Below, in pieces: positions 20,348 to 52,784 of a DNA stretch of 64,000 bases. Under the pieces are notes generated by a model that was not told the DNA's origin, did not search any database, and worked only from the letters and a program-made list of their open reading frames with translations. The translations under genes and the position numbers were made by a program. Within the stretch, counting starts at the first letter, position 1. Every line of letters begins with the position of its first letter. This stretch comes from a virus (taxonomy: Duplodnaviria; Caudoviricetes): positions 74,524 through 138,523 of IMG/VR virus record IMGVR_UViG_3300013426_000001; one strand, written 5' to 3'.

Positions 20348-20545
20348 ATGTTACCTGAAAGTATTAGAGATAGAGTTGTCGAAGAGCAGAACGAACTTCG
20401 CGACAGAATCACAAAACTTGCTTTGTTTGTTTACTCGGCGAAAATCGAAACCGTCGACGAAAAGCAAGTGAGATTGCTCAAACGTCAACTTCGTATTATG
20501 AGTGAATATGACGAAGTTCTGACAGAGCGGCTCAAAGCAGACTAA
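20348..20545 (+). CDS. small coiled-coil phage protein
   Basis: RVVEEQNELRDRITKL..QLRIMSEYDEVLTERL. Confidence 0.65.
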   Translation: MLPESIRDRVVEEQNELRDRITKLALFVYSAKIETVDEKQVRLLKRQLRIMSEYDEVLTERLKAD

Positions 20546-21240
20546 AATACAGGTGCCGAATACCAGAGACGTCGGGTCAAAAGGTCGGTTAAATGCGGGA
20601 TTATGCAAGCCTGAGAAAGCAACAACCTCTGAATTGGTGTAAGTGTGTATTAACACCGCCAGGATACGGCGGTATCCATGTAAGCAGGAAGTTGCAGGGG
20701 TCAACTAAAGGCGGCGGCTCGTTAAGCCGTGTAGCAACCCCTCAAAAACTCTATAATTGCACAGCGGATTGTAGATAATGGTGCGGCGCCAACAAGCCGA
20801 AATCAATGCAGTACGTAAGGGACTGATGGTTTACTGAGAAACAGAAAATCTCAAAGCTGTAAAAATATTTTAATAGGTGCTACGAAATCCTCTTAATTAT
20901 ACAAGAGCACTTAAAGTGTGACTTGCTTGCGTAATGACTTAAAGAACCTCGTTGAGTAGAGGTGGTCAGGGTTTAGTATCGAGGGAAAGGCGGTAGTAAA
21001 TGGAGTTGGACGAACAGCCTATATAGAGTTGATGGTGTAAAAATCTCTTAAAACCATCTTACGGAAAGATCCCCAAAAGGGACTGCGGGCGTTACGATTT
21101 TTTCCAGCGCCCACCGCTGACCAACATGCGGGATATAAGTGGCTGGGTCGACAAGTATCAAAAACAGGAATAACTCGAACTGTTTAGTTCCATCTCGGCT
21201 GGACGAGAGGTTTCTCCCCAAAGTACACGGGGATAGGGTT
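20546..21240 (+). ncRNA. large structured ncRNA candidate (GOLLD/ROOL size class, family unassigned)
   Basis: ~700 nt without an RBS-led ORF, more than 10 short hairpins, directly 5' of tRNA-Ser. Confidence 0.65.
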
Positions 21241-21246
21241 ATATGT

Positions 21247-21335
21247 GGAAACTTGCGAGAGTTGGTTTAATCGACTGGTCTTGAAAACCAGCGACCGTAA
21301 AAGGTCCGTCAGTTCAAATCTGACAGTTTCCGCCA
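21247..21335 (+). tRNA. tRNA-Ser(UGA)
   Basis: GGAAACT/AGTTTCC, anticodon loop CTTGAAA, long variable arm, TTCAAAT, GCCA. Confidence 0.95.
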
Positions 21336-21718: not shown

Positions 21719-22828
21719 ATGAAACTTAATAAAGCATTTAAATTTAGATTATTGCCAAATCAAAATCAAATAGATCTCCTTGGAAAAACTTTTGGTTGTT
21801 GTAGATCTATTTATAATAAAATGCTTGAAGATAAAATCAAATATTATGAAGAGACAAAAAAGAATTTATCTGTAACTCCAGCACAATATAAACAAGAATT
21901 TGAGTGGTTAAAAGAAGTTGATTCTTATTCTTTGTGTAATGAACAGATGAATTTACAAACTGCTTTCAATAATTTCTTTAGAAACCCAAAAGTTGGCTTC
22001 CCAAAATTCAAAAGCAAAAAGAGTGACAAAAGCAGTTATACAACAAGCAATGTTAGTAATATAATTAGAGTTAACGATAAGCACCAAATTCATCTATGTA
22101 AACTTGGTTGGGTTAAATTTGTAGAACATCGAAAAATTCCAACTGATTACAAAATTAAATCAGTAACAATTACCAAAACTCCATCGGGGAAATATTATAT
22201 TTCAATTTTAACCGAATATGAATATGAAATCTCCAAAAGAGTTTTAGATAAAAACAAATCTCTTGGATTAGATTACAGCTCTCATGACTTTTATGTCGAT
22301 AACCAAGGCAGAAATCCAGAGCATTTACATCATTATTACAGAGATTTGCAAAACAAACTTGCTTTTCACCAAAGAAAACTTTCGCATATGGTTAAGGATA
22401 GCAACAATTATGCTAAACAGAAAATAGTTATTGCTCGAATACACGAAAAGATTTCTAATCAGAGAAAAGATTTCGTAGAAAAAGAATCGACGAAACTCGC
22501 AGACTTATACGACGTTATCTGCCTCGAAAATATTGATTTGTCAAATATTGCTCAATCGTTAAAACTCGGTAAAAGCACGTTAGATAATGCCTTCGGGACG
22601 TTCAGAAATAGATTAGAGCAAAAGATGATATTGCAAGGGAAATTGGTCGCCAAAATAGATAAGTGGTTTCCCTCAAGCAAACTTTGCAGATTTTGTGGTT
22701 GCATTAACAAAGATTTGAAATTGTCCGACAGGGTTTGGAAATGTGAATGCGGTAAAACTCTTAACAGAGATGAAAATGCTGCGATAAATATTCTTAACAA
22801 AGGATTAAAGCAATTGACAATAGCATAA
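21719..22828 (+). mobile_element. tnpB: full-length TnpB (IS200/IS605), no tnpA
   Basis: KAFKFRLLP HTH, GLD, CLENIDL, CRFC/CECG Zn finger, RDENAAINI; RuvC D-E-D intact. Confidence 0.95.
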
Positions 22829-22842
22829 AAATATGTTATAAT
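22814..22842 (+). promoter_or_regulatory. promoter overlapping tnpB stop, positioned to start at the omegaRNA
   Basis: TTGACA 22814, 17 nt, TGn-TATAAT 22837. Confidence 0.8.
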
Positions 22843-22850
22843 TGAAATAG

Positions 22851-22965
22851 AACCGTTAGAACGACGGGGATAGCTTGTTGAAACTGATATTGTTTGGTAT
22901 CTTGAGCAAGAAACTCTGATGTTTTAGCATCGTGAGTAGTTCGCAATACGAGTTTTATTAATCTT
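22851..22965 (+). ncRNA. TnpB omegaRNA (scaffold plus putative guide)
   Basis: AACCGTyrGAACGACGGGGATAGCTTG...CAAGAA...GTTC shared with 38140-38232. Confidence 0.8.
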
Positions 22966-22972
22966 ATGAAAT

Positions 22973-23136
22973 ATGGCTGTACACGTAACGGCAACGTGAC
23001 CGAATCGTAAGTGTCGGAAAGGAAATAAACCCTCAATTGAGGCAATCAACGACGGTTGAAAGCGAATGAATTGGGTTTGAGTTTTCGCGAAAGTGCTCTA
23101 ACTTTATTGTGAGTTCAAATCTCACCAGCCATTCCA
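22973..23136 (+). ncRNA. 164-nt tRNA-like RNA with expanded central domain
   Basis: ATGGCTG/CAGCCAT+TCCA, D arm CACG/CGTG, T arm GTGAG-TTCAAAT-CTCAC, ~110 nt between D and T arms. Confidence 0.75.
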
Positions 23137-23266
23137 CCACCCTGCGGTAGGTATACATACGCGCAGTCCGAAGCTATTGGCGGATATGGAATTTGTGTAT
23201 AGCTAACACACTACGACGGAGTGGACGGGATTTCCCGCGTACCAGACAAAAGAAACCACTCCACCA
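23137..23266 (+). ncRNA. post-tRNA structured RNA motif, copy A
   Basis: CACCCTRCGG..TCCGAA..TGGCGGATA..ACGAC..GACA shared with 23344-23464. Confidence 0.6.
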
Positions 23267-23343: not shown

Positions 23344-23464
23344 GCACCCTACGGCAGACATTCTGAAGATGTTATGTGTGGTCCGAAAAATGGCGGATAG
23401 AGAGAAGGAAGCATTGCGCAATGCTTAGAACGACTGGGAATCTCGACATTAACCTTACCAGCCA
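23344..23464 (+). ncRNA. post-tRNA structured RNA motif, copy B
   Basis: same conserved blocks and stem order as 23137-23266. Confidence 0.6.
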
Positions 23465-23468
23465 TCAT

Positions 23469-23558
23469 GCTTGGTTGCCAGAGTCAGTTAAATGGAGCGG
23501 ATTTGTAATCCGCCGAGCGTCAAAGCTCACGACAGGGCAGAGCTGTCACCAAGCTCCA
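23469..23558 (+). tRNA. tRNA-Thr(UGU) with long variable arm
   Basis: GCTTGGT/ACCAAGC, GCGGA-TTTGTAA-TCCGC, V arm GAGC/GCTC, T arm GACAG/CTGTC, TCCA. Confidence 0.8.
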
Positions 23559-23634
23559 AAATATTTTTAGAAACCGTGTTATTTTGCTTGACACGGTTTC
23601 TTTTTTGTGTTATACTTATCTCAAAGGAGATTTT

Positions 23635-37789: not shown

Positions 37790-38232
37790 TTGACAAATAT
37801 TATTCGAGAAAACGACGTAATTTGTATTGAAGATTTGCAAGTGAAAAATATGGTCAAAAACCATAAACTCGCGCAAGCAATTAGCGACGTTTCTTGGTCG
37901 GAGTTTGTTCGGGAATTAGAATATAAGGCGCGTTGGTATGGAAGATTAGTTATTAAAGTCGATAAGTTTTTCCCGAGTTCTCAAACTTGCAGTGTCTGCG
38001 GCTACAAGAATGAAGGGACAAAAGACTTAAAAGTTAGAGAATGGGATTGCCCTGTTTGTCATACTCATCATGATAGGGATGTGAATGCGGCGATAAACAT
38101 TCTCAATGAAGGGCTTAAACAATTAGCCTAAACATAAACAACCGTCGGAACGACGGGGATAGCTTGGTAAATATTCTCGCAGTAGTCGGAAGTTCCCAAG
38201 AATCTCGCAGATTTAGTTGTGAGAGGTTCAAA
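37790..38232 (+). pseudogene. tnpB: 5'-truncated tnpB with intact omegaRNA/right end
   Basis: only ICIEDL, Zn finger and RDVNAAINI remain; scaffold ends GGTTCAA. Confidence 0.85.
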
Positions 38233-51537: not shown

Positions 51538-52784
51538 AAGCTTATACCTCCTTTATTTGCTCGTTAGCGGCGCTTCTGCTCACTCACCCAGAACAGACAG
51601 GGAATGGAAACATCCGCGTTGTTACGCAGTGCGGATGTAAGGCTGCGTCGAACTATCTTTCAAGTTCGATTAAGCGGCGTTCAACCGCTTTTGCGACTTC
51701 CCAGTCGTGAGCTTTGCGTGCTCTTTCGAGCCACGTCGTGAGCTTTGACTTGTCAGCCGTTTGACGTATGTAATCAAACACGTCCATTTCGTTCACCTCC
51801 TTTGACTTAAAGCTCTTCCTGTTCGCATTCGAGCTGATATTGGTCATCAACTCCGATGCTGGAAAGGAATTCAGCAACCATATCGGCTGCTTGCCTTGCC
51901 GTCTTTGCGCAAAAGATGCGAGAGAGGCGTACTTCATCGTTCGTGTCGAGTAACATGATCTTGAAAGTGTAACCTTTCAGCATTTTGGTACCTCCTTTTT
52001 TTGTGCTTTTAGCCAGCCAGCTGTTACGATTTACGAAAACGTAACTTGCCGAATGCTTGCTCGGGCTTGTGACCGAGCTGCCGCATTAACGCCTTTCGGC
52101 GCCACTCTGCGTAGTGTTTTTTACGTGGTTATCGCTTCCACGTCTTGTGTTAGTCTACTATCTCTATTTTGCCGTGTTTTTTCAAAAGTTCAACTTGTTT
52201 CATCATTTTTTCAAATGACGAATAAATGCAGAAATAATCATTTTTAGGATCGTCATGCATAATTTTGAGTTGGAAGTTATCTAAGCCTTTGTAAAATTTG
52301 AAACCTTTAATCATTTTAGGTTCCTCCGTTCTTTATTCCGTTAGCGGTGCTGTTGCTCACTCACGAAGAGCAACCATCGAAGCAGTTTTACATCTTACTT
52401 GGGATGTAATAATGTATTTCGCTTATAAAATAAGGTAATTTACATTATCTTAATTCACTTTTATTACTATATATAGTATATGTTATCCCTTTTCACACTC
52501 AACTCAGAATTCCTCCCCCACTAATTAAAGACGCCCAACTCAAAACACCATCCCCTCCTCAAATTCCAACCCGCGTAACCACCCATTCCCATTTTTTGAA
52601 CCCCAATTCTCAATCCACCTCAACCCTCCAAACGTCTGGACAATTTCACATTTACATTCACCCACCTAAAACCTTTACCCTTTTGCCCCCTCTTAAAAAA
52701 AAATAAAAAAAATCAAAAATCCCCCCAAATCGCTTGACAAATCCCCTTCCCTGTGTTATACTATACTCAAACAAGGAGGCAATT

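What the first reader, a model, noticed from the sequence alone, without database searches (positions are those of the whole stretch)
22973..23136. Giant tRNA-like RNA with a ~110-nt domain between D and T arms
It has a perfect 7-bp acceptor stem, U discriminator and CCA, a normal D arm with GG and a canonical T arm. The anticodon/variable region holds an irregular arm (CCGA-ATCGTAAGTG-TCGG), a long AAACCC..CAATT/AATTGGGTTT stem capped by TCAAC/GTTGA, and a GAG..CTC hairpin. It is too short for a group I intron and lacks tmRNA features. Inference: a tRNA scaffold displaying an RNA domain, for example a decoy for tRNA-targeting defences or a ribosome/synthetase ligand. Standard tRNA finders would probably miss it.
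Basis: partly seen in the sequence, partly recalled or inferred. Interest (0 to 1): 0.8.

Follow-up and report, generated by a model that had tools for sequence, protein, structure and literature searches.

The report
Oversized tRNA mimic riding TnpB homing
A gut phage carries a real 164-base RNA gene with the outer frame of a tRNA but no usable anticodon, and it always sits behind an RNA-guided nuclease whose guide matches the versions of that spot in related phages, so the odd RNA seems to be spread by a cut-and-copy drive while its own job is still inferred.

Summary
The tRNA frame is real: 7-bp acceptor, 5-bp D stem, canonical T arm, CCA; no such frame in 300 simulated genomes. The fold of the 110-nt middle is unsettled (z -0.6 to -1.4), and the U discriminator is not conserved (G in 6 of 14 copies). 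No Rfam, tmRNA, T-box, Y RNA or group I match; the one spliced parse (Ser-UGA) is non-canonical and arises in 6% of shuffles. New here: all 14 copies sit 144 nt behind one transposase-less TnpB with intact RuvC residues, under their own perfect promoter. The 15-nt guide between them matches the tRNA leader of 18 of 19 related phages that lack the cassette (mostly behind ATAA) and hold tRNA-Trp or tRNA-Pro there. The cassette is 98-100% identical across backbones only 88-95% identical. Best reading: a non-decoding tRNA mimic of the T4 species-1 kind, spread by RNA-guided homing, most likely a decoy in an anti-defence locus. No distant homologue, no covariation, no expression data. This scan has noted oversized phage tRNA mimics and tRNA-targeting TnpBs before on other DNA, in unchecked notes; this sequence family was not among them.

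The parts
22973..23136 (+). 164-nt tRNA-like RNA gene
22973..22979 (+). acceptor stem 5' strand (pairs with 23126-23132); A1-U72, U2-A71, G3-C70, G4-C69; G7 is A in 2 of 14 copies
22982..22998 (+). D arm, 5-bp stem, 7-nt loop with GG
23000..23017 (+). irregular arm in the anticodon position: 4-bp stem, internal loop, GUAA tetraloop; no U33-type anticodon loop
23021..23086 (+). long interrupted stem of the minimum-energy fold (core 23026-23032 with 23073-23079); fold uncertain
23046..23059 (+). 5-bp hairpin with GACG loop capping the long stem
   Evidence: 0.73-0.97
23065..23108 (+). 3' part of the middle domain with competing folds: hairpin 23091-23104, or helix 23065-23070 with 23103-23108 (the U-to-C variant at 23105 turns its G.U into G-C)
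23109..23125 (+). canonical T arm
23133..23136 (+). discriminator (U in 8, G in 6 copies) and CCA
21719..22828 (+). tnpB of IS200/IS605 type, 369 aa, RuvC D185/E270/D351 present; no left end, no tnpA in the genome
22814..22842 (+). perfect sigma70-type promoter with extended -10 over the tnpB stop; absent behind six homologous tnpB genes
22851..22944 (+). omega-RNA scaffold; right end TTCGC where homologues have TTCAC
22945..22959 (+). 15-nt guide, invariant in 14 copies, matching the minus strand of the tRNA leader in cassette-less relatives
22960..22972 (+). 13-nt spacer between guide match and the inferred RNase P site; 2 variable sites
23569..23609 (+). intrinsic terminator closing the unit (after tRNA-Pro and a long-armed tRNA-Thr-like gene)
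20348..20545 (+). context: PF21825 (Sequestin family) gene heading the RNA array

Best explanation
A non-decoding tRNA mimic, one exchangeable module of a phage tRNA/small-RNA array, now the payload of an RNA-guided homing cassette. Step 1 (sequence shown, transcription inferred): the promoter at 22814-22842 starts a transcript of omega-RNA, guide, this RNA and the downstream tRNAs. Step 2 (inferred from the intact acceptor, T arm and elbow): host RNase P cuts at 22973, which frees a 164-nt CCA-ended RNA and sets the 3' end of the omega-RNA. Step 3 (guide, target, flanking motif and catalytic residues shown; cutting inferred): TnpB cuts the leader of the rival allele in a co-infecting relative, and repair copies in tnpB, guide and this RNA in place of tRNA-Trp or tRNA-Pro, as SegB does for the T4 tRNA region. 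Step 4 (inferred, weakest; about 0.3 alone): the free RNA is not a decoder and probably not specifically charged; its likeliest job is to soak up host enzymes that read the tRNA elbow and CCA end, such as tRNA-attacking defence toxins. Homing alone I put at about 0.75, non-decoding and unspliced at about 0.85.
For: Frame real and beyond chance. No excision gives an anticodon arm with canonical spacing or 5 Watson-Crick pairs. Discriminator varies U/G, so no fixed charging identity. RNA follows this tnpB in 14 of 14 copies and is absent from 19 relatives that cover the slot. Guide matches 15/15 behind ATAA in 14 of those 19, 14/15 in 3, 15/15 behind GTAA in 1; one has the leader loop inverted; chance of a 15-mer in one genome 2.6e-4. 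ATAA independently precedes the empty site of a 92%-identical TnpB (L054 guide, L050 site). No self-target in the genome. Cassette 98.4-100% identical where the flanking gene is 88-95% identical; L025-L027 share one cassette on three backbones. Promoter gained in this lineage. Fewer variable sites in the RNA than at tnpB synonymous sites, 4/160 vs 15/208, p 0.03. Locus has a Sequestin-family gene and, in many relatives, a kinase-like AAA_33 gene and an RNA ligase gene.
Against: No distant homologue in IMG/VR, JGI, GTDB, INPHARED or PLSDB searches, so no covariation. Middle domain has a weak folding signal. Homing spreads cargo whether useful or not, so conservation is partly explained without function; the selection signal is marginal (p 0.08 for the middle alone). 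One acceptor pair is broken in 2 copies. Carriers were found through tnpB, so RNA copies without tnpB may be missed. A single origin of carriers is not formally rejected (p-AU 0.055). No partner protein or toxin is identified.
Confidence: 0.5

Rival explanations
1. Passenger or cis handle only: a tRNA-derived gene with a junk or decayed middle that hitch-hikes on TnpB homing; at most its frame serves as the RNase P site that ends the guide RNA.
For: Found only with the cassette; middle z -0.6 to -1.4; no distant homologue; variable discriminator and one broken acceptor pair; any tRNA would give an RNase P site.
Against: Frame is perfect and self-consistent, unlike the Trp or Pro genes it replaces; the middle does not come from the IS left end, T4 rnaC/rnaD or the own genome; fewer variable sites than synonymous sites (p 0.03).
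Confidence: 0.27
2. Intron-containing tRNA, like the enigmatic tRNA introns of Lak phages: loss of 70 nt after position 33 or 34 gives a class II tRNA-Ser(UGA).
For: ARAGORN with introns makes this call; a 4-5-bp hairpin lies where a long variable arm would be; one register has U before and G at the end of the excised part, and a U.G pair in the first hairpin, as in group I P1 (sequence).
Against: Product has 2 nt between D and anticodon stems, a U.U pair, G37-U38, and U72 rather than the C72 and G2-C71 of bacterial Ser identity (PMC9976931); 6% of shuffles parse as well; no bulge-helix-bulge at those junctions; no group I core, RtcB, kinase or RNA ligase homologue found in the genome; an ordinary tRNA-Ser(UGA) already lies at 21247-21335.
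Confidence: 0.1
3. A synthetase or ribosome ligand, for example a TrpRS-binding or chargeable RNA that replaces tRNA-Trp function in a non-decoding way.
For: Acceptor has A1-U72, G3-C70, G4-C69 and A9, and G73 in 6 copies, part of the bacterial Trp set (PMC9976931); it takes the slot of tRNA-Trp in most relatives.
Against: G2-C71 and G5-C68 are absent, no CCA triplet in the middle domain, discriminator not fixed; five acceptor pairs also match E. coli tRNA-His, which it cannot be (no G-1, no C73), so such partial matches are cheap.
Confidence: 0.08
4. A Y-type RNA whose first arm binds a Ro60/Rsr protein.
For: Positions 26-32 resemble the GNCGAAN0-1G motif and can form a bulged-C helix (sequence; motif from PMC4201824).
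Against: Motif is a near miss and overlaps the D stem; no YrlA hit on this RNA, no TROVE gene in five genomes of the family; topology is not permuted.
Confidence: 0.03

Closest known systems
Phage T4 species 1 RNA (rnaC, 139 nt) and species 2 RNA (rnaD, 119 nt), AF158101
   Same: Oversized stable-RNA gene in a phage tRNA cluster; rnaC has a canonical T arm next to an acceptor-like 3' strand and long hairpins in place of an anticodon arm; function unknown (PMC3014915, PMC9697503).
   Different: No sequence or model match; this RNA has a full D arm and a perfect acceptor stem, a weaker fold (z -2.3 vs -4.6), and is tied to a TnpB guide.
T4 SegB free-standing homing endonuclease (PMC2330249)
   Same: Nuclease gene inside a tRNA cluster that spreads itself and neighbouring tRNA genes at the cost of the rival phage's markers.
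   Different: Here the nuclease is an RNA-guided TnpB, the target is the tRNA leader rather than the T arm, and the co-converted gene is a non-decoding mimic; homing is inferred, not shown.
TnpB/omega-RNA of IS200/IS605 elements
   Same: Pfam domains, RuvC triad, right-end scaffold, guide from flanking DNA, 5' target-adjacent motif.
   Different: No tnpA, no left end, altered right end, a new internal promoter, guide aimed at the opposite strand of the empty allele, transcript continuing into a tRNA-like RNA.
Lak megaphage tRNAs with predicted introns (PMC6784885)
   Same: Oversized tRNA genes in gut phages that finders parse as intron-containing; inserts near-invariant across samples.
   Different: No insert-free allele of this frame was found, and the spliced product would be non-canonical.
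Allo-tRNAs and irregular polycistronic tRNAs (PMC5389517)
   Same: Irregular tRNA bodies in phage and bacterial clusters, some with extra loops and U73.
   Different: Those have 8/4 or 9/3 acceptor branches and an anticodon arm; this one is 7/5 with a 110-nt middle.

Membership tests
canonical tRNA (RF00005) | 7-bp acceptor stem, T arm, NCCA end | tested here: met
canonical tRNA (RF00005) | 5-bp anticodon stem with 7-nt U33/R37 loop after the D arm; Rfam score | tested here: not met
   (no hit at E 10)
intron-containing tRNA | excision restores a canonical anticodon arm | tested here: not met
   no parse with canonical spacing or 5 Watson-Crick pairs; best parse matched by 6% of shuffles
intron-containing tRNA | group I core or bulge-helix-bulge at the junctions | tested here: not met
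intron-containing tRNA | spliced form in RNA | tested here: inconclusive
   the only RNA run laid does not cover the gene
tmRNA | G3.U70, stemless D loop, tag reading frame | tested here: not met
   G3-C70 and a 5-bp D stem; ARAGORN and Rfam negative
YrlA-type Y RNA (RF02553) | permuted tRNA-like module, model hit, linked Ro60 gene | tested here: not met
T-box riboswitch (RF00230) | stem I with specifier loop plus antiterminator | tested here: not met
allo-tRNA | 8/4 or 9/3 acceptor branch | tested here: not met
   7/5 branch
T4 species 1-like RNA (works like) | oversized, T arm plus acceptor end, no anticodon arm, inside a phage tRNA cluster | tested here: met
T4 species 1-like RNA (homology) | sequence or structure homology to rnaC or rnaD | tested here: not met
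T4 species 1-like RNA (works like) | accumulates as a stable processed RNA | not testable with these tools
   only contigs available
TnpB/omega-RNA nuclease | RuvC triad, right-end scaffold, guide with matching target behind a motif | tested here: met
complete IS200/IS605 element | tnpA or intact ends | tested here: not met
   right end TTCGC
free-standing homing endonuclease system | target present in nuclease-less relatives and absent in carriers; cassette younger than backbone | tested here: met
free-standing homing endonuclease system | cleavage and biased inheritance in co-infection | not testable with these tools
   needs experiment

The most novel reading that the evidence does not exclude
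A phage has turned a TnpB into an RNA-guided gene drive whose guide and payload are made as one transcript: RNase P cleavage of a tRNA mimic matures the guide, and the released 164-nt mimic, with an ordered middle domain, inhibits a tRNA-targeting host defence, replacing a true tRNA gene in rival phages.
Probability: 0.2. Interest if true: 0.85.

Novelty: new variant of a known kind. Interest (0 to 1): 0.55.

Why it matters
Oversized tRNA-shaped phage RNAs have been known since T4 species 1, whose role is still reported as unknown. This one comes with a natural comparison: close relatives with and without it at one slot, and two discriminator variants. It also gives a clean, testable case of a transposase-less TnpB acting as a SegB-like homing nuclease in a phage tRNA array, with guide, flanking motif (ATAA), possible escape alleles and a natural tRNA-guide fusion like those engineered for CRISPR guide processing. 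If the RNA blocks a tRNA-attacking defence it would be an RNA counter-defence of a kind I did not find in the open papers searched.

Tried and rejected
Distant homologues: exact and degenerate patterns in viral, metagenome and genome collections gave nothing or chance hits inside coding DNA; blastn against phages and plasmids gave T-arm or chance hits only; a covariance model of the five variants found only ordinary tRNAs in 36 loci and no second copy in the genome; four related whole genomes had none. Other loci with TnpBs 78-92% identical lack the RNA, so it is not part of the IS itself. Expression: the one RNA run laid (X15) does not cover the gene and appears to hold a cassette-less relative; this says nothing on expression. 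Run X1 may be the same material as one of my loci and is not counted as independent. Shared 25-nt stretch with another array module in L024 and L005 (20/25 identical): p 0.07 over all arrays searched, pairs differently there, and a model of that module does not hit the RNA; kept as a lead only. T-box stem I, group I remnant, SRP-like and known-ribozyme readings of the middle: no model support. His identity: acceptor resembles E. coli hisR but lacks G-1 and C73. Origin from a reversed IS left end: no similarity. A CUA triplet near 23098 has only 2-3 of 5 flanking pairs and the genome reads normally under table 11: no suppressor claim. Host: unresolved; one relative is binned in a Bacteroidaceae genome, but the promoters and GGAGG ribosome sites look Bacillota-like (my inference).

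Full report
Setting. The window is part of a complete circular phage genome of 138.5 kb. Runs that hold the stretch include pig and sheep gut samples. The finding lies in an RNA array between a Sequestin-family gene (PF21825, a sponge family that inhibits type I Thoeris) and a RecD2 helicase gene. The array holds tRNA-Ser, -Gln and -Pro, several unannotated modules, and a tnpB gene at 21719-22828.

Observation. The frame is as described: seven Watson-Crick acceptor pairs, a D arm with GG, a canonical T arm and CCA. A strict search for such a frame finds this gene once in the genome and nothing in 300 simulated genomes. The D stem is 5 bp, not 4. Of the middle 110 nt, the first arm and the TCAAC hairpin are well supported, the AAACCC stem moderately, and the 3' part has competing folds; the middle alone folds no better than shuffles. 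Rfam has no match even at E 10. ARAGORN misses it by default but parses it as tRNA-Ser(TGA) with a 70-nt intron when introns are allowed.

Other copies. Thirteen further assemblies carry the gene at 97-100% identity, and contigs of three runs carry it unbroken. Five sites vary: position 7 (breaks an acceptor pair in two copies), 46, 66, 133 and the discriminator, which is U in eight and G in six copies. The G form has the same 3' flank as the tRNA-Trp allele of relatives, so it probably came by recombination at the CCA end (inference). Four variable sites in 160 compare with 15 in about 208 synonymous sites of tnpB (p 0.03; middle alone p 0.08): weak evidence of constraint. No distant homologue was found by patterns, blastn or a covariance model, so there is no covariation test.

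Is it spliced? An exhaustive single-excision test gives no anticodon arm with canonical spacing and none with five Watson-Crick pairs; the best parse has a U.U pair, G37-U38 and two bases between D and anticodon stems, and 6% of shuffled middles parse as well. There is no bulge-helix-bulge at those junctions, no group I core, and no RtcB or homologue of the relatives' kinase and ligase genes in this genome. The product would lack the bacterial Ser acceptor marks (PMC9976931), and a normal tRNA-Ser(UGA) is already present. Lak phages have similar enigmatic 'introns' (PMC6784885), so I leave this at 0.1.

The coupling to TnpB. All 14 copies lie 144 nt behind the same tnpB (at least 97.5% amino-acid identity). 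Nineteen related phage records that cover the slot without tnpB hold tRNA-Trp or a tRNA-Pro-type gene there and never this RNA. The TnpB keeps D185, E270 and D351; the genome has no tnpA; the left end is gone, the gene being joined at its ribosome site to the array. Homologous loci place the right end at 22944. The next 15 nt match the minus strand of the tRNA leader of the relatives: 15/15 behind ATAA in 14 records, 14/15 in three, 15/15 behind GTAA in one, and one record has the leader loop inverted. That inverted allele shows that this hairpin flips in nature, which offers a route to the reversed guide (inference). ATAA also precedes the empty site for a 92%-identical TnpB of a related phage. 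Carriers lack the site. The predicted cut, 15-21 nt from the motif by general knowledge of TnpB, falls near the left edge of the replaced segment. The cassette is 98.4-100% identical among carriers whose flanking gene is 88-95% identical; the tree needs four changes, though one origin is not formally rejected (p-AU 0.055). A perfect promoter sits over the tnpB stop codon and is missing behind six homologous genes; a terminator closes the unit at 23569-23609. Other TnpB loci of 78-92% identity have no such RNA, so the RNA is cargo of this lineage, not part of the IS.

Mechanism. Shown: anatomy, linkage, guide-target match, flanking motif, catalytic residues, promoter and terminator sequences, young cassette on older backbones. 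Inferred: transcription, RNase P cleavage at 22973 (a 7-bp acceptor stem is a main RNase P determinant, PMC4201824), TnpB cutting and homing as for T4 SegB (PMC2330249), and the job of the released RNA. With no anticodon arm and no fixed discriminator, decoding and specific charging are unlikely. What is kept is the elbow and the CCA end, the surfaces read by processing enzymes and by several tRNA-attacking toxins (my knowledge). With a Sequestin-family gene upstream and kinase-like and RNA ligase genes downstream in many relatives, a decoy role is the likeliest single job, about 0.3; the whole reading of a trans-acting mimic on a homing cassette gets 0.5. The main rival, at 0.27, is that the RNA is a passenger or only the handle that ends the guide.

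Comparison and novelty. It works like T4 species 1 RNA, an oversized T-arm-bearing RNA of a tRNA cluster whose role is reported as unknown, but is not homologous to it. It fails the tests for tRNA, tmRNA, YrlA, T-box and allo-tRNA. Earlier unchecked notes of this scan describe oversized tRNA mimics in other phages and TnpBs aimed at tRNA alleles in archaea and phages; they gave me the T4 lead but are not evidence, and no look-alike of this stretch was on record in another genome. My paper searches found no report of a TnpB guide fused to a tRNA mimic or of TnpB homing in a phage tRNA array (judged from titles and abstracts); the library lacks most subscription papers. Verdict: real, a new variant of a known kind, function unproven; interest 0.55.

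Noticed in passing
window 23138-23266 and 23345-23464: Two related ~125-nt modules, each starting just after a tRNA CCA and ending in a short stem plus NCCA; stems vary with pairing kept across relatives (L001, L002, L014). One contig type deletes the first by recombination between the two TCCACCA ends (L024). No Rfam hit.
   Followed up: partly
window 23469-23558: tRNA-Thr(UGU)-like gene with a long variable arm and a GGCAGAG T loop; T stem changes with pairing kept in L001, L010, L012, L024.
   Followed up: no
L024:1858-1986, L005:3568-3696, L038:10094-10222, L043:2413-2536: Undescribed module that begins with a ~48-nt mini-tRNA (acceptor stem, stemless D loop, T arm, no anticodon arm); the mini-tRNA also occurs alone before an endonuclease-like ORF (L003, L033, L086, L087). 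Its 3' half is complementary over 11 of 12 nt to a neighbouring module that lies after it in L024 and before it in L043.
   Followed up: partly
L012:4632-4698, L001, L003, L005, L024, L027 after a tRNA near the array end: Conserved ~65-nt unit with T arm first, then a closed stem-loop and a D-loop-like stretch: a permuted tRNA-like shape; no YrlA hit over cut-off and no Ro60 gene.
   Followed up: partly
L001:2844-4040: A second TnpB (63% identical) inserted at the head of the array; its guide matches the array sequence at about window 20727-20740 behind TTAA, so this phage family has more than one TnpB aimed at its RNA array.
   Followed up: partly
window 38131-38231: Second omega-RNA-like scaffold behind a truncated tnpB remnant.
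   Followed up: no
window 52061-52111 (-): Twister-P5 ribozyme, 58.2 bits.
   Followed up: no
L040:11296-11330 versus L002:5457-5495: The tRNA-leader hairpin has its loop inverted between the repeat arms in one allele, which removes the TnpB target.
   Followed up: partly
L012:4869-7004, L025:4368-6110 and others: Relatives carry an AAA_33 kinase-like gene plus either of two RNA ligase families between the array and recD2; this genome has neither.
   Followed up: partly
window 20546-21240: About 700 nt of unannotated, shuffled RNA modules heading the array; no Rfam hit.
   Followed up: no
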